Source: Octopus vulgaris | Lineage: Eukaryota | DNA: 64,000 nt | NCBI GenBank assembly: GCA_951406725.2 | Contig: OX597818.1 | Location: forward strand, 57,040,001 to 57,104,000 | Direction: 5' to 3' | Part shown: piece after piece, positions 4,269-64,000 of the stretch | How positions within the stretch are numbered: the first letter of the stretch is position 1 | Layout of the letters: the number at the start of each line of letters is the position of its first letter | Translations under genes and position numbers: made by a program | The notes under the pieces: generated by a model | Seen by the model: only the letters and a program-made list of their open reading frames with translations | Databases searched by the model: none | Told to the model about the DNA's origin: nothing

Positions 4269-4271
4269 ATA

Positions 4272-4484
4272 TATCTGTAAATGTAATATATAAGAAATTA
4301 TTCGGTAGCCAAGATAAAACTCTGAGTTTCGGATGCCGAGGTGGAAATCCATGCCACCATCTCTTCAGTTATCCGATAGCCATATAACTGAAGAGATGGT
4401 GGTGTGGATTTCCACCTCGGCATCCGAAACTCAGAGTTTTATCTTGGCTACAGAATAATTTCTTATATATTACATTTACAGATA
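4272..4484. repeat. Near-perfect fold-back (~101-bp arms, 11-nt loop) with a full HHR in each arm
   Basis: tatctgtaaatgtaat...ctcttcagttat [ccgatagccat] ataactgaagag...attacatttacagata, followed by a short tail and (TA)n. Confidence 0.95.
4384..4442 (+). ncRNA. Minimal hammerhead ribozyme motif (mirror copy on minus strand ~4314-4372)
   Basis: ATAA-CTGAAGA-GATG(ggtgg/ccacc inner stem)CATC-c-GAAA-CTcagAG-TT-TTAT; stem I ATAA/TTAT. Confidence 0.7.
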
Positions 4485-5143
4485 AATTCCTCTATTTACA
4501 TAATATCGAGGTGTCTTTCTTTCTTTTGTTATCTTACCGTTTTTATAACTATATATATATATATACACACACACACACATATATGTATACATACATATAT
4601 GTATATATATATGTATATATATATATATATATACACAGACACATCTATTTATATGCACACACCCTCATGAACACATTATTTCCAATAAGAAACATTACCT
4701 GCATAAGGCTTATGTCTGTCAAAAGACGGTAACCAGTTCTGCTTTATTATAAGAAAGCCACCCCATGGTTTGTTCCAGCCATTCCATGAACAATTTACAG
4801 CAAGGTGTATGTTGTGTACCAGTGGTGACTGTCCCTCCATTCCTTAAACTACAGCATATTCAAATGAGAATTATAATGGAAGTTAGTCAAATTTTGTGTT
4901 TTTTTTACAGATGTTTTTTGTAAAATTGTAATGTTCTGCTCAGCTGAACTTGAAAGATGTCAAGTTTTTTTTTCTCATTTTTATAAACTACAAAAGTATA
5001 TTTTATCAAAATTGCTCCAGTATGGACTTTTGTGCTGAGACTGCTGGTTTTAAAATGTAAAAAAAACCCCCTAAAAAACCCAAATATGACAACAGAACAT
5101 TGAAACAATACTTCACTTTATTATTTTCAAAGTATTTCTGTTA

Positions 5144-18284: not shown

Positions 18285-18347
18285 CCATTCCTTAACTCTA
18301 AGTATCCATTCCTTAACTCTAAGTATCCATTCCTTAACTCTAAGTAC
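18285..18347 (+). repeat. 3 x 21-bp tandem repeat fused to a truncated SINE
   Basis: ccattccttaactctaagtat x3; the last copy runs into the SINE sequence taagtaccagttacgc. Confidence 0.9.
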
Positions 18348-18905
18348 CAGTTACGCACTGGGGTCGATGTAATCGACTTGATCCCTTTGTCTGTCCTTGT
18401 TTGTTCCCTCTATGTTTAGCCCCTTGTGGGTAATAAAGAAATAGGTATTTTGCTGGTGCTACGTTCTGAGTTCAAATTCTGCCGCGGTCGACTTTGCCAT
18501 TCATCCTTTCAGAGTCGATTAAATAAGTACCAGTTACGCACTGGGGTCGATGTAATCGACTTAATACCTATATCTGTCCTTGTTTGTTCCCTCTATGTTT
18601 AGCCCCTTGTGGGTAATAAAGAAATAGGTATTTTGCTGGTGTTACGTTCTGAGTTCAAATTCCGCCGAGGTCGACTTTGCCTTTCATCCTTTCGGAGTCG
18701 ATTAAATAAGTGCCAGTTACGCACTGGGGTCGATGTAATCGACTTAATCCGTTTGTCTGTCCTTGTTTGTCCTCTCTGTGTTTAGCCCCTTGTGGGTAGT
18801 AAAGAAATCGGAGTCGATAAATTAAGTACCTGTTGTATACTGGAGTCGATCTAATCGATTTACTCCTTTCTCTGAAGTTACTGACCTTGTGCCAAAATTT
18901 GAAAT
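18341..18905 (+). mobile_element. Family-A SINE multimer (183-bp units)
   Basis: Units restart at ggtattt (18444, 18627). Other arrays or copies: 22217-22620, 26100-26697, 38835-39222(-), 46726-47120(-), 47395-47640, 51757-52140, 59322-59960, 60562-61650, 62932-63322. Confidence 0.9.
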
Positions 18906-25925: not shown

Positions 25926-27108
25926 AGAGTCGGAATAAATACCCCGAGACGCCTAAACTACTCTGCCAGTTGGCCGTTATGTATTGCATCGATAGATTTG
26001 GTCTTAGCTGTCATCAACTATGCATAAATTCGCCATGTCCGATGTCATTTCTTTTCCTGCAAACTTGACACTAACGTTTTTGATATATGAACAAAGAAAG
26101 GCGGCGAGCTGGCAGAAACGTTAGCACGCCGGGCGAAATGCTTAGCGGTATTTCGTCTGCGTTACGTTGTGAGTTCAAATTCCGCCGAGGTCGACTTTGC
26201 CTTTCATCCTTTCGGGGTCGATAAATTAAGTACCAGTTGCGCACTGGGGTCGATGTAATCGACTTAATACCTATGTCTGTCATTGTTTGTCCCCTCTATG
26301 TTTAGCCCTTGTGGGTAAGTAAAGAAATAGGTATTTCGTCTGTCATTACATTGTGAGTTCAAATTCCACCGAGGTCGACTTTAACTTTCTTCCTTTCGAG
26401 GTCGATTTAATAAATACCAGTTACGCACTGGGGTCGATATAATCGACTTAATCCGTTTGTCTGTCCTTGTTTGTCCTTTCTGTGTTTAGCCCCTTGTGGG
26501 TAGTAAAGAAATAAATATTTCGTCTGTCGTTACGTTCTGAGTTCAATATTCCGCCGAGGTCGACTTTGCCATTCATCCATCGGGGTCGATTTAATAAGTA
26601 CGAGTTGCGCACTGGGGTCGATGTAATCGACTTAATCCGTTTGTCTGTCCTTGTTTGTCCTCTCTATGTTTAGCCCCTTGTAGGTAGTAAAGAAATATAT
26701 ATGGACAAATATATAGGAGAGTTTAAGAGTTTTGAATAAACTTCATCAACAAACGAAGGGGTGCCTTTTCAATAACACACATAAAGACACCCCCTACACA
26801 AAATAAACGTATATATATATATTTATATAAATGGTCTCTTCAATTTATAACAACTTGAATCTTTCTGTAAGGATTGAGTTGTTGCTAGCATGCGAAGTTC
26901 CGTTGTTAGGATGCAGGTAGCAAACGCATTGTTAAACTTGAGAAAAGTTTTGCATATTTTTAATGTTCCGCTTACGGATTGTATTTGTAACGTGCATGTC
27001 AGCTGGCGGACTACTTTTTCTGAAAATTCAAGGTATTTCAGATTGTTACTTAGGCCACACCATGTAAAATATGGAAGGATTTTTCTGACCCTCATATATA
27101 TATATATA

Positions 27109-27256
27109 AAATTATAATTAAGGATATCTAAGAGACGCCACCATGCTAGATATAGCTGCCAAAACTCGACTCTAAAACCAAATAGGGTTATAGAGTCAAG
27201 TTTTGGCTGCTATATCTAGCATGGTGGTATCTCTTAGATAGCCTTAATTATAATTT
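27109..27256. repeat. Fold-back element 1 (~71-bp arms) plus tail, in (TA)n
   Basis: aaattataattaaggatatctaagag...aaaacc [aaatag] ggttatagag...ccttaattataattt. Confidence 0.92.
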
Positions 27257-27337
27257 CAATAATAATATTACCTATGAGGTTTTTTATTCCTATGCTGGCC
27301 ACCTGATAAGATTGGTATTTTAAATAACGATCTTATC

Positions 27338-27375
<38 letters not shown>

Positions 27376-27408
27376 TGAGAAAGTTGGTGTGTGAAAGCAC
27401 GTGGTTGA

Positions 27409-27610
27409 ATATATAGAAAATGGTAAAAAGTGAAAAAAACTACAGAAGGCTTGTTTTAAAAGGTTAAAAAATATATATTTGAGTCAATATGTCAGAAACT
27501 ATGTCATTGTATGAAAAAAATTTATAACATTCTTCTGACATAATGACTCAAATATATATTTTTTAACCTTTTAAAACAAGCCTTCTGTAGTTTTTTCACT
27601 TTTTACTATT

Positions 27611-27620
<10 letters not shown>
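27409..27620. repeat. Fold-back element 2 (~90-bp arms), in (TA)n
   Basis: atatatagaaaatggtaaaaagtg...tgtcagaa / ttctgaca...cactttttactattttctatatat. Confidence 0.92.
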
Positions 27621-27659
<39 letters not shown>

Positions 27660-27840
27660 ATATATATTATTCAAAGAAATTCCTACCCTGTCTGTTTTTT
27701 ATGTTTTATTTATATTCTTTATAATATTAATGTAGAATATAGAATATATAGTATAAATAATATATATATATATATAGTAAAATGAAATGAAGTATTGATT
27801 GTCTTATTGAATAGATGAAATGTTGGATATAAAATATTAA

Positions 27841-27884
27841 GGGACTAGTATACTTTCATGCATTTTAGCAGTCTTCAAGGTCCC
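27841..27884 (-). ncRNA. Minimal HHR motif with an extra U in the core
   Basis: GGGAC-CTTGAAGA-c-TGC-taaaat-GCA-t-GAAA-GTATAC-TA-GTCCC: perfect 5-bp stem I, palindromic stem III. Confidence 0.65.
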
Positions 27885-27905
27885 AGGTTGTGACAGGAGT
27901 GTTTC

Positions 27906-27949
<44 letters not shown>

Positions 27950-27953
<4 letters not shown>

Positions 27954-28219
27954 TTAATAATTAGGGTTCAGCAAAGATTTGCTTTACCACATACCGAAGT
28001 TTAGAAATAGCAGCGAATAAACGTTAGCTATTTCTTCTACTTTAAAAAGGGACTCCCAGAAAAACCAAAATACTTGAAAAGTATTTCGTTTTGAAGTAAT
28101 TTGGTTTTTCTGGGAGTCCCTTTTTAAAGTAGAAGAAATAGCTAACGTTTTTTTGCTGCTATTTCTAAACTTCGGTATGTGGTAAAGTAAATCTTTGCTG
28201 AACCCTAATTATTAAGTAT
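27950..28219. repeat. Fold-back element 3 (~130-bp arms, 8-nt loop) plus tail, in (TA)n
   Basis: atacttaataattagggttcagc...cttgaaaa [gtatttcg] ttttgaag...gctgaaccctaattattaagtat. Confidence 0.95.
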
Positions 28220-28337
28220 TACTTAAGTTTACCATGAAATGGTCCTTTTTTCATGCCGAATTCTACTTGGTGAAATTATTGATTACTTCTTAATTAATTA
28301 ATTAATTTTCCCCTTTGTTATATATATATATATATAT

Positions 28338-28628
28338 ACAATTCATAAATAAGAGCAAACGAAAAAAATTCTAATGCCAAATATGCCGAAAAATTGGACA
28401 TATTGTCCATTAACCATATAATTTTTTCACAATACGCACGTGTCTCGAAAAAAGGTCGACAGAAATCGGTCCGATATGGTAATAATGGATTTTTTTAGAA
28501 ATTTCTGTCGACCTTTTTTCGAGTAGCGTGCGTATTGTGAAAAATTATATGGTTAATGGACAATATGTCTAATTTTTCGGCATATTTGGCATTAGAATTT
28601 TTTTCCTTTGCCCTCATTTATGAATTGT
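28338..28628. repeat. Fold-back element 4 (~130-bp arms) plus tail, in (TA)n
   Basis: acaattcataaat...gtcgacagaaat / atttctgtcgac...atttatgaattgt. The tail shares tatgctggcca with the tail of element 1. Confidence 0.95.
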
Positions 28629-28795
28629 TTATAAATTTAACCGTTAAAGGTATTTTTTAATATGCTGGCCATTGATAAAATTTTTTGGGAGAAAAGATTT
28701 TTTTTCGAAAAGAATTTTATCCTCACAAATATATATATATTTAGTGAAGAGAAGAAATGGAGCTGAACGAAGATTCTACAAAATTCCTTTTTATT

Positions 28796-28881
28796 ATTTT
28801 CTACACATGTTTCAAAGGCTGCAAATTTCCAAATTCGGATTGAATAAGGAGACCATTTTGCAGCTTTCTCTTCAGGAAAAT
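28796..28881 (-). ncRNA. Hammerhead ribozyme motif, well preserved
   Basis: ATTTTC-CTGAAGA-GAAAGCTGCAAA...TTTGCAGCCTTT-GAAA-CATGTG-TA-GAAAAT: 6-bp stem I, ~12-bp stem II, GUA site; element bounded by (TA)n. Confidence 0.8.
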
Positions 28882-28924
28882 CCAGGAATTTAAATCTCCG
28901 TAACAAGATAATTCATTTATCCAT

Positions 28925-28987
<63 letters not shown>

Positions 28988-29432: not shown

Positions 29433-30560
29433 TCATCATGGTCGTCATCATTGTCATCATCATCATCATCATCATCATCGTCGTTGTCGTCATCATCATC
29501 ATCAGACGCAGATACGGTCGCTACCATCGCTGCCGCCGCTTCCACCGATGTCACCGTTGCTACCATCCTCATCCCCACCAGCGCAACCATCATCGCCATC
29601 ACCATCACGACCACCAACACCACCGTCGTCGCCGCCGCCACCACCACCACAATCACCATCACCACCATAACTACTACCACCACCACAACCACCACCGTCA
29701 TCACCACTACCACCAACATCACCACCACAACCACCACCACCACCACCACCACCACCACAACCACCACTGTCATCATCACTACCACCAACATCACCACCAC
29801 AACCACCACCACCACCACCACAACCACCACTGTCATCATCACTACCACCAACATCACCACCACAACCACCACCACCACAACCACCACTGTCATCATCACT
29901 ACCACCAACATCACCACCACAACCACCACCACCACAACCACCACTGTCATCATCACTACCACCAACATCACCACCACAACCACCACCACCACGACCACCA
30001 CTGTCATCATCACTACCACCAACATCACCACCACAACCACCACCACCACAACCACCACTGTCATCATCATCACCACCACCAACACCACCACAACCACCAC
30101 CACCACAACCACCACCGTCATCACCACTACCACCAACATCACCACCACAACCACCACCACCACCAACATCACCACTACAACCACCACCACCACCATCATC
30201 ACCACCACCATCATCATCACCACAACCACCACCACCATCACCACCACAACCACAATCACCACCACCGCCACCATCACCACCACCACTACATCACTACGAT
30301 CGCCATGCGACAGTCTCCATCAGACGACGTCCACCACACCCTTCACAACACCGCCACAGTACCACTAATACCACCACCACAACTTGCAAGTACCATCACC
30401 ACCACCACCACCACCGGTCTCACCACCACTACCTCTCTCATTACTAGCACCTCTCTCACCACTACCAACGCAACCACAATAACCACAACCACCACCATCA
30501 CCACCACCACACTCACCCCACAACCTCAATCACTACCACCGACCACCGACCACCCCACCC
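29433..30560. repeat. (CAT)n to (CAC)n trinucleotide field with a 57-bp higher-order repeat
   Basis: The marker ccaccactgt recurs at 29761, 29824, 29881, 29938, 29995 and 30052. Confidence 0.9.
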
Positions 30561-31309
30561 CACAAATCGATAGATATATATATATATTTAGATAAATAAT
30601 ATGAAATATTCTAAAATACTATTTTTTATTGATAACTTAAAGTTTTATTATCACGAGCATCAAAAAAAAAAAAAAAATTAAAAAAACTTATTTCCATAAG
30701 GATTCCAACTATTTGAATTAAAATATAAATATAAATTCTTGATTTGGTAAAATTTTTCGACTTAAAATAATTTAAAAGTTATTGCAGAGTGTTTCTGTTA
30801 TTATTTGTTTATATATTTACTTATTTAATTTATAATTTCGAAATTGTATTTGTCTTTTAAATTCGTATTCACCCATGGTTTCAAATATGCTTTATTTATA
30901 TTCATTTAAAGTTATTTTTTTTTTCTACTTTCACTTTCACTTTCACTTTCATAGGAGTTAATAATATAAACTTTGAATATTCCTCTGGAAAAAAATAAAT
31001 AAAAGAATATGAGAAAAAAAAACCTAAAAAAAATCAAAAAAAAATTTGCGTAAATAATTTATTGGAATCCATTGTTGTTATTACAATTTTTCTACGATTT
31101 CTAAAAGGGTGTGTGTATATATTATGTATATAAGCACTTACATGCATACATATTCGCTAATATAAGTGTGTATATATATGCCTTAATATATGTCTGTCTC
31201 TGTATACATGTATATAAACACACATATTTACATATATATATGAATACACATATGCATATACATATGTATATTTATATACACACACATATAATATATGTAT
31301 ATATATATG

Positions 31310-58763: not shown

Positions 58764-61700
58764 CGTTATATTGATATTTATTATTATGTCTAGTTTATTC
58801 TTTTACTAGTTAGTCATTTGACTGCGGCCTTGCTGGAGCACCGCCTTTAGTCGAAGAAATCGACCACAGGACTTATTCTATCTGTCTCTTTTGCCGAACC
58901 GCTAAGTTACGGGGATGTAAACACACCAACATCGGCTGTGGGAGGACAAACACAAACACAAAAATACACAAATACATACGATGGGCTTCTTCCAGTTTCC
59001 GTCTACCAAATCCACTCACAAAGCTTTAATCGGACCGAGGATATAGAATAAGACACTTGCCCAAGGTGCCACGCAGTGGGACTGAACCTGAAACCATGTG
59101 GTTGGGCAGCAAGTATCTTACCACTCAGCCCGTCCTGCGTTATACATAAAAACACTAAAACTTCGATTATAAAACTTCGATTATTCGGTATGTATTAGTA
59201 CCGTATCACATTTTTACAGAGAAAAGGCTGACAGTGAGTTCGAAGTGTTGCCGTCTATGACATTCGAAAGCAGTCATCAATATACATATCATGCTGTTAT
59301 ATTTGGTATTATCGATCTAAAGGCGGCGAGGTGGCAGAAACGTTAGCACGCCGGGCGAAATGCGCAGCCGTATTTCGTCTGCCGTTACGTTCTGAGTTCA
59401 AATTCCGCCGAGGTCGACTTTGCCTTTCATCCTTTCGGGGTCGATTAATTAAGTACCAGTTACGCACTGGGGTCGATGTAATCGACTTAATAACTATGTC
59501 TGTCCTTGTTTGTTCCCTCTGTGTTTAGCCCTTTTGTGGGTAACAAAGAAATAGGTATTTCGTCTGCCGCTATGTTCTGAGTTCAAATTCCGCCGAGGTC
59601 GACTTTGCCTTTCAGCCTTTCGAGGTCGATTAAATAAGTACCAGTTATGCACTAGGGTTGATATAATCGACTTAATCCGTTTGTTTGTCCTTGTTTGTCC
59701 TCTGTGTTTAGCCCCCTGTGGGTAGTAAAGAAATAGGTATTTCGTCTACCGTTACGTTCTGAGTTCAAATTCCGCCGAGGTCGACTTTGCCTTTCATCCT
59801 TTCGGGGTCTCCGTTTGTCTGTCCTTGTTTGTCCCCTCTGTGTTTAGCCTCCTGAGGGTAGTAAAGAAATAATTATTATCGTTCCTTTCGGGGTCTCCGT
59901 TTGTCTGTCCTTGTTTGTCCCCTCTGTGTTTAGCCTCCTGAGGGTAGTAAAGAAATAATTATTATCGTTCTTAGCTATGGTTTAGCTTCGACAGTAATTC
60001 TTCTGTCTGATTAAATAAACATATTATTTGATTTTTTCTCTTTCCTTTTGGACATGTCGCTGCTTGCTCACACTTGCTTCTACAACATAAAATTCCTTTG
60101 ATTTTGTAAAGCAATAAAATTAAGTAATAGAGTCAATTATTGTTGTTGTCTCAACGAACAAATTTTTAATTTCCTGGAGTTTTCGCCGGAATAAAACTGG
60201 CACTCTGTCGGTTACGACGACGAGTTTTCCAGGGGATCCCATCAATGGAACAGCCTGTTCGTAATATTAACGTGAAAGTGGTTGAGGATTCCGCAGACGA
60301 GCGGAATCCTTAATGTAACTCTCAGGGAGTTTCAGCGTGTCACAGAATGATGTGATAAGGCTGGCCATTTTGAATTACTCCTACTACTCATTTTTGTCAG
60401 TTCTGTGAACTGCAGCAACGTGAATAAAATTGTCTTGCTCAAGTGCAAAATACGCCACCGAGAATCGAACCCGAACCACTAAGCCACGTGTCTTCACTTC
60501 ACAGGAATAACACTACCACTAGTAACAGTTGAATATATTCTTCATTATTGATAGTATATAAGGCGGCGACTGGCAGAATCGTTAGCACGTCGGGCGAAAT
60601 GCTTAGCAGTATTAGGTCTGCTGTTACGTTCTGAGTTCATATTCCGCCGAGGTCGACTTGGTCTTGCATCCTTTCGGGGTCGATAAATTAAGTACCAGTT
60701 ATGCACTGGGGTCGATATGGTCGACTTAATCCCTTTGTCTGTCCTTGTTTGTCCCCTCTGTGTTTAGCCCCTTGTGGGTAATAAAGAAATAGATATTTCG
60801 TCTGTCTTTACGTTCTGAGTTCAAATTCCGCCGAGGTCAACCTTGCCTTTCATCCTTTCGGGGTCGATAAATTAAGTACCAGTTACGCACTGGGGTCGAT
60901 GTAATCGACTTAATCCCTTTGTCTGTCCTTGTTTGTCCCCTCTATGTTTAGCCCCTTGTGGGTAGTAAAGAAATATATATTCTTTATTATTAATAGTTTA
61001 TAAAGCGGCGAGCTGGCAGAATCGTTAGCACGTCGGGCGAAATGCTTAGCAGTATTTCGTCTGCTGTTACGTTCTGAGTTCAAATTCCGCCGAGGTCGAC
61101 TTTGCCTCTCATCCTTTCGGGGTTGATAAATTAAGTACCAGTTACGCACTGGGGTCGATATGGTCGACTTAATCCGTCTATCTGTCCTTGTTTACTTCCT
61201 CTGTGTTTAGCCCCTTGTGGGTAGTAAAGAAATAGGTATTTCGTCTGTCTTAAAGGCGGCGAGCTGGCAGAAACGTTAGCACGCCGGGCGAAATGCTTTG
61301 TGGTATTTCGTCTGCCGCTACGTTCTGAGTTCAAATTCCGCCGAGGTTGACTTTGCCTTTCAGCCTTTCGGGGTCGATTAAATAAGTACTAGTTACGCAC
61401 TGGGGTCGATATAATCGACTTAATCCGTTTGTCTGTCCTTATTTGTCCTCTCTGTGTTTAGCTCCTTGTGAGTAGTAAAGAAATAGGTATTTCGTCGGCC
61501 GCTACGTTCTGAGTTCAAATGCTGCCGAGGTCGACTTTGCCTTTCATCCTTTCGGGGTCGATAAAATAAGTATCAGTTGAGCACCGGGGCGATGTAATCG
61601 ACTCATTCCCTGCCCCAAAATGGCTGCCTTAGTGGCAAAATTTGGAACCTTTATTATATTAAAAGTACGCATCCATCATTTAGTCTAAGTTCGATGGATG

Positions 61701-64000
61701 GACTTGACAACAGAAGGGCTGGTAGAATGACTATCATCGTCTTATTACGGCTCACTGCGTTCACAGTTCAAATCCCACCGCGGTCATCTTTGTCTTCTAT
61801 TCTTCAGGTATCAATAAAATAAAATATATCAAGTACAGACGTATAAATGACTAGGAACAATTTATTTATCTTTAAAGTATCATAAATAATAATGGAATTA
61901 TAAAAGAAGATACTTTAAAATTGGAAACTATTTTAAATCAAACAGATATTTATTTAGTTCGGTATTTTTAAAATGAGTGATATGTTTTTCTTCAAGTTTC
62001 GCTTCTTTATTTCAGAATTAAAATAATATTTCTTTGCATGCAATCTGTTATCAATTTACATACAAACTATGTCTGCAAGCTACTGTCCCTCATTCTATTC
62101 AAAGAAAAATTTTAATTTATTTTTCTGTTGAAACGACCGTCTCCTAAAAAAGCGTACTGATAGCTCGCCAGCCATTGCTATTAAAACTTTAGATAATTTA
62201 TCACAAAATAATTTACAAATTTCTGAGATGAGTACATACTGTAGATTTCGAGGCGAAATTTTAAAAATATGATAAAAATAAATTCATAGAAAAATATTTG
62301 TTCAAAAGAAACACGATATTTAAAAACACGAGACTATTTTGTTCATTTGCATGCCTAGATTTTGGCGCTAATGAAGTCTGGAAGCCTTGCATGCAACGTT
62401 TTGGTTATGTTTAGTGGCAGCCAGTTTTCAGCCATAAATCAATTACACGGAATTTCAATGGCTCTGCTATTAGAACCGGTGTCAAGGTCTTTTCAGTGAA
62501 AAGATATGGTTTTCAATAGACTTGGAATATTTTCGTCGTCTCTTTATTTAAAATCTGGGACATGCATGCCTTTTTGTCTCCGACCGAAACTTCACATCAT
62601 TTCAGAACTCAAACTTCCCCGAGAATAAGTCAGAACATAGAAATAAAATTTCACTATACTTAACGTAGTTGATTAAAGTTAGATGCACACTGTTTTTAAC
62701 AAAAGTTTACATTTTCTATAATTTTCTACCATGTTTATCAGCGATATTTGCCACCTACTTAATTCCGATAACGACTTTACTACGTATAAAAACCTATGCT
62801 TCTTTTGTAAACGAACACGAAAAATTCGACGCACCTGCATTTAGCAGGATGTCTTTGTGTTATGTGAGACATTATATAGCATACATACATTGACCATCAT
62901 GGTTTTGTGTTTTATATATATTCAGTTCAAAGGCGGCGAGCTGGCAGAAACGTTAGCAGTATTTCGTCTGCCGTTACGTTCTGAGTTCAAATTCCGCCGA
63001 GGTCGACTTTGCCTTTCATCCCTTTGGGGTCGATAAATTAAGTACCAGTTACGCACTGGGGTCGATATAATCGACTTAATCCCTTCGTCTGTCATTGTTT
63101 GTCTTCTCTGTGTTTAGCTCCTTGGGTAGTAAAGAAATAGGTATTTCGTCTGTCGTTACGTTCTGAGTTCAAATTCCGCCGAGGTCGACTTTGCCTTTCA
63201 TCCTTTCGGGGTCGATAAATAAAGTACCAGTTTCGCACTGGGGTCGATGTAATCGACTTAATCCGTTTTTCTGTCCTTGTTTGTCCCCTCTATGTTTAGC
63301 CCCTTGTGGGTAGTAAAGAAATATATATATATATATATATTCAGTTCATATATATTCAGTAATTTTGTTCTGAATTTTAAATGTATACTTAACAAATACA
63401 AAGATACTAATTATTGTCGTATGACGGAGCACAACGTAAGAGGAGACCTTATTTAGTATGTAAGCAATACAAATAAGGAATTCACCACAATTTAGGAATT
63501 CTGGTAAGATAGGTACAAATTGTAGTTTATATTAGGCTTATATGCGAAAGGAATTCTGTAAACAGTCCGAACGGTTTATCAGACGCGAGGTTTAGTTTCT
63601 GTTACCCAAGAGTTTGTGGAGGCGCGTGGCCCAGTGGTTACGGGTGTTGGACTCACGATCGCAAGATTGTAGTTTCGATTGCTGGACCGGGCGATGCATT
63701 GTGTTCTTGAGCAAAACACTTCATTTTATGTTGCTCCAGGCCACATTGTATGACGGACCTATGTTCCGTCCAGGGAGGAATATATACGCCAGAGAAACGG
63801 GGAAACCGGGGCTATGTTCCTTACAGAGTAATGTGGACTAATCAGTTGATCTAATTATGTTGTTTCACATGAAATGTCTCATTCTTAATTACTTGTTATT
63901 CCAGTAATTTAAAAACTCAATCAGGTATACCTTGCATTTATTTCGACTCTTATTCTCTCCCAACAAATATTGTTGAGATACAAAATTCGTATCCACAAAC

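What the first reader, a model, noticed from the sequence alone, without database searches (positions are those of the whole stretch)
27109..28930. Array of four different long fold-backs and two HHR units separated by (TA)n spacers
Seen: within 1.8 kb, four palindromes (70-130-bp arms, different sequences) and two HHR-bearing units alternate with TA tracts. Typical layout: TA tract, palindrome, unique tail, TA tract. Two tails share tatgctggcca. This asymmetry is not MITE-like. Inference: serial TA-targeted integration of PLE-type ends whose cDNA snapped back, building a dense cruciform/dsRNA-prone array.
Basis: partly seen in the sequence, partly recalled or inferred. Interest (0 to 1): 0.75.

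Follow-up and report, generated by a model that had tools for sequence, protein, structure and literature searches.

The report
Pile-up of Penelope retroelement ends
The array is six truncated copies from six common Penelope-type jumping-element families stacked in TA repeats, a known kind of genomic debris, and the mirror-image halves were likely made when both cut DNA strands started copying the element's RNA at two fixed points, a pattern that helps test how these elements insert.

Summary
Observation confirmed: four fold-backs and two hammerhead-like units alternate with TA tracts. Each unit belongs to its own dispersed family. Three are 3' ends of protein-coding Penelope-like elements (PLEs: GIY-YIG and/or RT frames upstream in longer copies). 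Three are pieces of non-coding tandem monomers (475-600 nt, retrozyme-like). All six parent families carry a type I hammerhead-like motif; cleavage is untested.

In five families, two-armed insertions follow one rule: one arm ends at fixed site A, the other at fixed site B (134 of 154), the A-B interval is the 'tail', and the inner junction varies. This excludes MITEs. It also argues against snap-back as the general route: in 28 of 134 the tail-less arm reaches further than the tailed arm, and in 5 (including one window unit) the arms do not overlap. Two cDNAs primed at A and B fit best (inferred).

Inverted copy plus tail is a published PLE footprint, and this scan already reported it, with twin priming, on other DNA of this genome. 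The density (4 fold-backs in 1.5 kb versus 13 per 400 kb) is rare but needs no special mechanism. Known kind; useful mechanistic data.

The parts
27109..27340 (+). Unit 1 (family F1): inverted arm ending at site A (27109-27183), forward arm plus about 85-nt tail to site B; piece of a roughly 550-nt non-coding tandem monomer whose hammerhead-like motif lies about 100 nt upstream of the piece kept here. Oldest unit (87-93% to reference copy).
27374..27613 (-). Unit 2 (family F2): 3' end of a Neptune-type PLE; tailed arm 27497-27374, tail-less arm 27492-27613 reaches 41 nt further 5' than the tailed arm; 6-nt overlap at the junction. Parent has a minimal hammerhead-like motif with U3-A8 core.
27660..27908 (-). 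Unit 3 (family H3): 5'-truncated, non-inverted 3' end of a Neptune-type PLE, including its tail (27660-27776) and the internal TA-rich site A.
27841..27884 (-). Deviant type I hammerhead-like motif of H3 (extra U in the core, mismatch at base of stem II; the same form in other copies); activity untested.
27953..28318 (+). Unit 4 (family F3): inverted arm to site A (27953-28079), forward arm plus about 97-nt tail; piece of a 597-nt non-coding tandem monomer with a canonical-core hammerhead-like motif (GUC site) about 60 nt upstream of the piece kept here.
28339..28728 (+). Unit 5 (family F4): inverted arm to site A (28339-28466), forward arm from 28462 plus about 100-nt tail; 5-nt microhomology junction; piece of a 475-nt non-coding tandem monomer; the forward arm starts inside the hammerhead-like motif and keeps only its 3' half.
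28741..28928 (-). Unit 6 (family H6): inverted arm ending at site A (28899-28741, minus) joined by 3-nt microhomology to only the last about 30 nt of the tail (28897-28928, plus); arms do not overlap. Parent is a coding PLE (RT plus C-terminal GIY-YIG-like frame, Hydra-like). Youngest unit (99%).
28797..28880 (-). Type I hammerhead-like motif of H6 (CUGAAGA core, long stem II, GUA site); activity untested.
27257..27340 (+). F1 tail module: small hairpin, T-run, ATGCTGGCCA, terminal TGATAA...TTATC hairpin; shared architecture with the F4 tail.
28640..28728 (+). F4 tail module, same architecture as F1 tail.
27094..28984 (.). (TA)n target tracts between elements: 27094-27108, 27341-27373, 27614-27656, 27909-27952, 28319-28338, 28729-28740, 28929-28984.

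Best explanation
The array is six truncated copies from six different dispersed families, three from protein-coding Penelope-like retroelements and three from hammerhead-bearing non-coding tandem repeats, lying in (TA)n tracts; each palindrome-plus-tail was likely made by twin priming, in which a Penelope enzyme would cut both strands of the TA target and each end would prime a cDNA at one of two fixed RNA sites. Shown: family membership, parent structure, two fixed outer ends (A and B) per family, variable inner junction, short microhomologies, TA flanks. Inferred: (1) the GIY-YIG endonuclease nicks both strands of (TA)n, which reads the same on both strands; (2) one 3' end primes at the distal site B, the other at the proximal site A, both of which are followed by AT-rich, often TATA-like sequence in the parent; (3) the two cDNAs run 5'-ward, stop at variable points and are joined head to head by microhomology; overlap gives a palindrome, and the A-B interval, copied once, is the tail; (4) both cDNAs usually come from one RNA or one source locus; (5) every insertion leaves TA on both sides, so later elements can land beside it; (6) the non-coding monomers borrow a PLE enzyme through a shared tail module. 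The copies here are most likely inert debris.
For: Each unit has 1,357-2,310 first-look candidates in G000 and 40 of 40 scored matched. F2 extends into a frame 52% identical over 172 aa to an RT + GIY-YIG ORF; H3 into a GIY-YIG frame over the Pfam cut-off; H6 into an RT frame with YRDD (Atlas neighbours at 0.93-0.96 carry HTH_animal/RVT_1 in part of their members) followed by a GIY-YIG-like frame. F1, F3, F4 occur as tandem monomers, periods 551, 597, 475, longest ATG frame 46-94 aa. Hammerhead descriptor hits in all six families, with a compensatory stem II pair in F2. Of 154 two-armed insertions in five families 134 are A+B, 6 B+B, 0 A+A, 14 with one end unassigned; A ends and B ends cluster within a few nt while inner ends take 27-43 different values per family. 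Tail-less arm reaches further in 28 of 134, tailed arm in 45, within 15 nt in 61; 5 have no overlap, all in the young H6 family (arms mostly 95-99% to reference). 78 of 134 junctions show overlap of the two alignments. Own arm closer than the median other arm in 32/35, 22/31, 33/35 insertions of F1, F2, F3. In vitro, a PLE protein cuts and extends both target strands and starts at two sites that bound the tail (PMC11167929).
Against: No biochemical test. No autonomous partner found for F1, F3, F4 (0 of 30 GIY-YIG loci and 0 of 30 tail-motif loci linked them). Arms of one insertion are more alike than arms of different insertions, which snap-back and gene conversion also predict; no such difference was detectable in F4 (10/15, p=0.09) or H6 (3/8). 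106 of 134 junctions are compatible with snap-back, and part of the sample was selected with palindromic queries. 47 of 134 junctions show a gap rather than overlap in BLAST terms. Asymmetric deletions after insertion could mimic long tail-less arms. In the published in vitro system initiation sites were not homologous to the cut DNA, unlike the TATA-like sites I see. P0001 and P0002 have no Pfam or PDB hit. Target-site duplications cannot be read inside (TA)n. Local pile-up is not clearly enriched: 34 other fold-backs in 613.6 kb of family flanks versus 13 in 400 kb, p=0.06.
Confidence: 0.7

Rival explanations
1. PLE origin as above, but the palindrome arises by snap-back or self-priming: one cDNA (or an antisense template) folds on itself and recopies its own sequence; asymmetric cases are later deletions.
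For: Published interpretation of head-to-head PLE repeats is self-priming (PMC3846280, passages). 106 of 134 junctions allow it; unit 5's 5-nt junction is exactly what a 3' fold-back would give. Arms of one insertion share variants.
Against: 28 of 134 tail-less arms hold sequence absent from the tailed arm; 5 young insertions have no overlap, each with a different junction, one with a 1.4-kb tail-less arm against a 100-nt tailed arm. It does not explain why the second arm ends at a fixed site A.
Confidence: 0.2
2. Four families of fixed-length MITEs or other non-autonomous DNA transposons that target (TA)n.
For: Palindromic queries return many near-full-length copies of similar size; all sit in TA.
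Against: One-arm queries show variable centres, many copies with no inversion (adjacent inverted arm in only 14/29, 16/29, 17/29, 16/24, 1/24 loci), one-sided tails, extension into RT/GIY-YIG frames or tandem hammerhead monomers.
Confidence: 0.02
3. Assembly or amplification chimeras.
For: Palindromes are a known artefact class (established knowledge); I have no read-level check.
Against: Arms differ by 2-9% within each window palindrome; the same A/B architecture recurs at well over a hundred dispersed loci with different junctions.
Confidence: 0.02
4. The array is a selected or functional cruciform/dsRNA element or a special insertion hotspot.
For: About 70-fold local density over background.
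Against: 0.06-6 such tiles are expected genome-wide by chance; units differ in age (87-99% to references); no host gene frame among the 20 frames of 170 aa or more in the window, which are all simple-repeat translations.
Confidence: 0.06

Closest known systems
Inverted 5'-truncated insertions with a one-sided tail of EN+ Penelope-like elements (Penelope/Poseidon, Neptune, Naiad, Hydra; PMC8557442 passages and section 11; PMC3846280 passages)
   Same: Head-to-head inverted copy at the 5' end, tail on one side only, (TA)n targets, hammerhead motif near the 3' end, RT plus C-terminal GIY-YIG.
   Different: Tails here are 41-153 nt rather than the 30-40 nt described; copies are so short that the whole insertion is a palindrome; non-overlapping arms contradict the self-priming reading in PMC3846280.
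Metazoan non-LTR retrozymes (PMC7229834 passages; bioRxiv 10.64898/2026.07.22.740005 parts 1-3 of 5)
   Same: F1, F3, F4: non-coding tandem monomers with a type I hammerhead-like motif, dispersed, linked to PLEs.
   Different: Monomers are 475-600 nt (within the 51-972 range of the preprint, above the roughly 300 nt typical); most sampled copies are sub-monomer fold-backs; circles and cleavage not shown; insertion ends lie 270-290 nt 3' of the predicted cut site, not at it.
Poseidon element of Anolis in vitro (PMC11167929, parts 1-2 of 4 read)
   Same: Two internal RT start sites bounding the tail; both target strands cut and extended; AT-rich target.
   Different: There the start sites are not homologous to the cut DNA; here sites A and B are followed by AT-rich, often TATA-like sequence resembling the target (seen, not statistically tested). 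The parts I read do not explain inverted copies.
LINE-1 twin priming (recalled, no call)
   Same: Second target strand primes a second cDNA; head-to-head junction with microhomology.
   Different: Second priming site is fixed, not variable, and the arms usually overlap, giving a palindrome.

Membership tests
EN+ Penelope-like element (F2, H3, H6 parents) | PLE-type RT and GIY-YIG endonuclease in the parent | tested here: met
   H3: GIY-YIG 28 bits over cut-off 22.6, RT not reached. F2: 52% identity to an ORF with RVT_1 and GIY-YIG. H6: RT motifs read directly and Atlas neighbours; no Pfam hit.
EN+ Penelope-like element (F2, H3, H6 parents) | Type I hammerhead motif near the 3' end | tested here: met
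   Descriptor hits: F2 U3-A8 minimal form (a variant described in PMC4209133), H6 canonical core, H3 deviant.
EN+ Penelope-like element (F2, H3, H6 parents) | Inverted 5'-truncated copy and one-sided tail | tested here: met
   F2 32 of 38 and H6 15 of 16 two-armed insertions are A+B; H3 only 1 of 24 loci inverted.
EN+ Penelope-like element (F2, H3, H6 parents) | RT phylogeny within PLE clades | not tested
   No reference PLE set was on hand; clade names rest on motifs.
Neptune clade (F2, H3) | CX2-5CxxC linker motif before GIY-YIG and CCHH inside it | tested here: met
   Read in P0003, P0004 (partly decayed) and L327; motif definitions from PMC8557442. Nematis not excluded without a tree.
Hydra clade (H6) | No CCHH; CxxC and CxH around conserved E and N | tested here: met
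   P0002 C-terminus read against section 11 of PMC8557442.
Hydra clade (H6) | CxCX5C linker motif | tested here: not met
   Not seen in P0002 (one copy only); so called Hydra-like, not filed as Hydra.
Non-LTR retrozyme (F1, F3, F4) | Non-coding tandem monomer | tested here: met
   Dimers or trimers at L128, L147, L050; longest ATG frame under 100 aa.
Non-LTR retrozyme (F1, F3, F4) | Type I hammerhead in the monomer | tested here: met
   F3 and F4 canonical core; F1 weaker (1 descriptor hit, A-A mismatch at stem II base).
Non-LTR retrozyme (F1, F3, F4) | Self-cleavage and circular RNA monomers | not testable with these tools
   Needs in vitro transcription and northern or divergent RT-PCR.
MITE | Fixed length, symmetric terminal inverted repeats | tested here: not met
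   Variable junctions, one-sided tails, non-inverted copies.
MITE | Defined target-site duplication | tested here: inconclusive
   Flanks are (TA)n, so a TA duplication cannot be read.

The most novel reading that the evidence does not exclude
Fixed-site twin priming on a self-complementary (TA)n target is the general origin of the inverted 5' copy and tail of Penelope-like elements, replacing the published self-priming model; a conserved roughly 100-nt two-hairpin tail module (over 3,200 exact motif matches) is the cis-signal by which several otherwise unalignable retrozyme families borrow one PLE enzyme; the result is on the order of 10^5 long hairpins in this genome.
Probability: 0.45. Interest if true: 0.65.

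Novelty: new member of a known kind. Interest (0 to 1): 0.4.

Why it matters
How PLEs make their tandem/inverted structures is called undefined in PMC8557442. The A+B rule in five unrelated families, coding and non-coding, and the non-overlapping arms give a genomic test between self-priming and twin priming and name exact RNA sites to mutate in the existing in vitro assay. It also ties retrozyme-like monomers to PLE machinery by insertion footprint rather than by co-occurrence. For annotation: these palindromes will be mis-called MITEs or miRNA precursors. About 90,000 fold-backs genome-wide (48,000-156,000; family origin of the background ones mostly not assigned) could be a large dsRNA source if transcribed, which is untested. 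The array itself is probably inert.

Tried and rejected
Rfam scan: no hammerhead family hit, only sub-threshold miRNA hairpins. Pfam and PDB searches of the H6 RT and EN frames: no hit. First hammerhead descriptor was too strict and missed F1, F4, H3; relaxed after seeing these motifs, so those three hits are not blind. Search for the autonomous partner of F1/F3/F4: none in 30 GIY-YIG loci or 30 tail-motif loci. BLAST between the six family references: no alignment at E<0.01. Clustering of fold-backs beside family copies: 1.7-fold, p=0.06, inconclusive. Sequencing runs: 20 runs hold part of the stretch, no RNA holder listed; no read or contig evidence was obtained, so empty-site alleles and expression remain open. 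Literature: 'Penelope + twin priming + inverted + retrotransposon' gave 2 papers, neither on PLE mechanism by listing; 'Penelope + pLTR + inverted + palindrom + tail' gave 2; 'octopus + Penelope + hammerhead' 4 listed; listings only. These searches cover only the open library. Supplements of PMC8557442 (family lists, hammerheads of Hydra elements) were not read and may already catalogue these families. Helitron/Helentron, Replitron and tyrosine-recombinase origins were considered from the hairpin tail and dropped once RT/GIY-YIG parents and hammerhead monomers appeared. No earlier notes near the locus or on the unit 5 sequence.

Full report
OBSERVATION. The window holds four fold-backs at 27109-27256, about 27409-27620, 27950-28219 and 28327-28639, separated by TA tracts. 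Arms are 92-98% complementary over their ungapped parts, not identical. Two hammerhead-like motifs lie on the minus strand with cores at 27879 and 28875. The genome G000 is 2.8 Gb in 227 contigs.

EACH UNIT IS A DISPERSED FAMILY. Searches of G000 with each unit gave 1,357-2,310 first-look candidates, of which 40 were scored each time and matched; these are not copy numbers. Flanks are nearly always TA-rich. The six family references do not align with each other at E<0.01. Window copies are 87-99% identical to their references, so they likely arrived at different times, unit 1 early and unit 6 last.

PARENTS. One-arm queries recover longer copies. F2 (unit 2) runs upstream into a frame 52% identical over 172 aa to an ORF with RVT_1 and GIY-YIG. 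H3 (unit 3) runs into a GIY-YIG frame above the Pfam cut-off. Both show the cysteine linker and CCHH pattern given for Neptune-type PLEs in PMC8557442 (passages). H6 (unit 6) is the end of a 3.6-kb insertion at L246 with an RT frame (YRDD; 463 aa) and an overlapping second frame ending in a GIY-YIG-like domain with CxxC-E and N-CxH but no CCHH. That fits part of the Hydra description (section 11), but the CxCX5C linker is missing, Pfam and PDB give no hit, and the RT aligns only weakly to the Neptune-type RT (22%, E=0.001); Atlas neighbours at 0.93-0.96 are eukaryotic clusters with HTH_animal or RVT_1 in part of their members. F1, F3 and F4 instead read through their 3' end into their own upstream sequence: tandem monomers of about 551, 597 and 475 nt at L128, L147 and L050, with no ATG frame over 94 aa. 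A type I hammerhead descriptor hits all six families: canonical core in F3, F4, H6; U3-A8 minimal form with a compensatory stem II pair in F2 (variant described in PMC4209133, part 1 of 4 read); deviant forms in F1 and H3 (descriptor relaxed after inspection; 1 hit in 836,700 shuffled bases, 8 in 400 kb of real genome). None was tested for cleavage.

THE A+B RULE. Mapping arms on single-locus references: of 154 two-armed insertions in F1, F2, F3, F4 and H6, 134 have one arm ending at a fixed site A and the other at a fixed site B, 6 are B+B, none A+A, 14 have one unassigned end. The A-B interval (41-153 nt) is the tail. Outer ends cluster within a few bases (H6: 15 of 15 A ends at one position); inner ends take 27-43 values per family. 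Identical loci from different searches were merged; five F4 loci failed anchoring but were mapped. Among loci found with one-arm queries an adjacent inverted arm was seen in 14/29 (F1), 16/29 (F2), 17/29 (F3), 16/24 (H6) and 1/24 (H3). This is the published PLE footprint (inverted 5'-truncated copy plus one-sided tail) and excludes MITEs.

SNAP-BACK OR TWO PRIMERS. A fold-back of the tailed cDNA can only recopy sequence it already has, so the tail-less arm should never reach further 5'. It does so by more than 15 nt in 28 of 134 insertions; the tailed arm reaches further in 45; 61 are within 15 nt, inflated by palindromic queries. In one-arm-query loci alone the counts are 11 and 27 of 48. Five H6 insertions (window unit 6, L170, L181, L182, L188) have no overlap, each with its own junction and about 1-4 nt of exact microhomology. 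Window unit 2 also has a tail-less arm 41 nt longer. Two cDNAs primed at A and B explain all cases and the fixed A end; a PLE protein does cut and extend both strands from two sites bounding the tail in vitro (PMC11167929). Against: later asymmetric deletion could produce such cases; the two arms of an insertion are more alike than arms of different insertions in F1 (7.7 vs 12.2%), F2 (1.2 vs 3.0%) and F3 (3.1 vs 6.0%), not detectably in F4 or H6, which fits one template RNA but also snap-back or conversion; 47 of 134 junctions show a gap instead of an overlap. The published reading is self-priming (PMC3846280). Sites A and B are followed in the parents by AT-rich, often TATA-like sequence; since (TA)n reads the same on both strands, both nicked ends could pair there. 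That step is inference and differs from the in vitro report of non-homologous starts.

SHARED TAIL. The pattern ATGCTGGCCA-N1-3-TGATAA-N20-45-TTATCC has 3,245 exact matches in G000 and 0 for the reversed control. The 30 loci examined show the same tail layout with variable hairpin interiors; 23 cluster with F1 or F4, 7 were too short or divergent to assign; none carried a frame matching five PLE protein queries. F1 and F4 tails align from site A to B while their bodies do not; the F3 tail looks built the same way by eye only. I read this as a cis-module for one PLE enzyme, which I did not find.

DENSITY. Forty arbitrarily placed 10-kb regions hold 13 fold-backs, at most 2 within 1.8 kb, or about 91,000 per genome (48,000-156,000). 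Four within 1.8 kb is expected 0.06-6 times per genome under a Poisson model. Flanks of 236 family loci are 1.7-fold enriched, p=0.06. The array is an extreme of a common process; feedback through regenerated TA tracts is plausible but not shown. No host coding frame was seen in the window, though exons were not searched. No read-level check was obtained.

COMPARISON AND VERDICT. Works like, and for F2, H3, H6 belongs to, EN+ PLEs; F1, F3, F4 meet the sequence criteria of non-LTR retrozymes (PMC7229834 passages; bioRxiv 10.64898/2026.07.22.740005 parts 1-3), with cleavage and circles untested. Earlier notes of this scan on other DNA of the same genome describe the same footprint and one proposes twin priming (seen after I had written my reading); they are not independent support. 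I found no paper applying twin priming to PLEs, which cover only the open library. New member of a known kind; PLE origin about 0.92, twin priming as main route about 0.7; interest 0.4.

Noticed in passing
window 4269-4487: Another TA-flanked fold-back (110-nt arms, 93%), probably the same kind of insertion.
   Followed up: no
L222-L245 (family H3): 18 of 24 copies begin within 7 nt of the same 5' point, about 60 nt upstream of the predicted hammerhead cut, as does the window copy; possibly an internal transcript start or strong RT stop. The query began at that point, so a selection effect is possible.
   Followed up: partly
L327, L332 and many rows: A young Neptune-type PLE family with many identical-scoring copies and intact 781-aa open frames: a candidate active element for in vitro work.
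   Followed up: partly
L246:3488-4624: The H6 PLE has an asparagine-rich stretch between RT thumb and endonuclease, like the N-rich inserts described for rotifer Penelope elements in PMC3846280.
   Followed up: no
L050/L249 (G000:C55), L141, L305, L312: Insertions whose arms exceed one monomer (up to about three monomers inverted against 1.5 forward), implying multimeric or circular templates.
   Followed up: partly
window 26147-26697, 18341-18808, 59370-63323: Tandem arrays of a 183-185-nt piece of an abundant SINE-like repeat.
   Followed up: no
window 29433-30600: Long (CAT)n/(CCA)n array reading as a Thr-rich mucin-like frame in one phase; probably simple repeat.
   Followed up: no
L251-L290: Type I hammerhead descriptor hits at about 1 per 50 kb of arbitrary genomic DNA against about 1 per 800 kb of shuffled sequence: tens of thousands of motifs genome-wide.
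   Followed up: no
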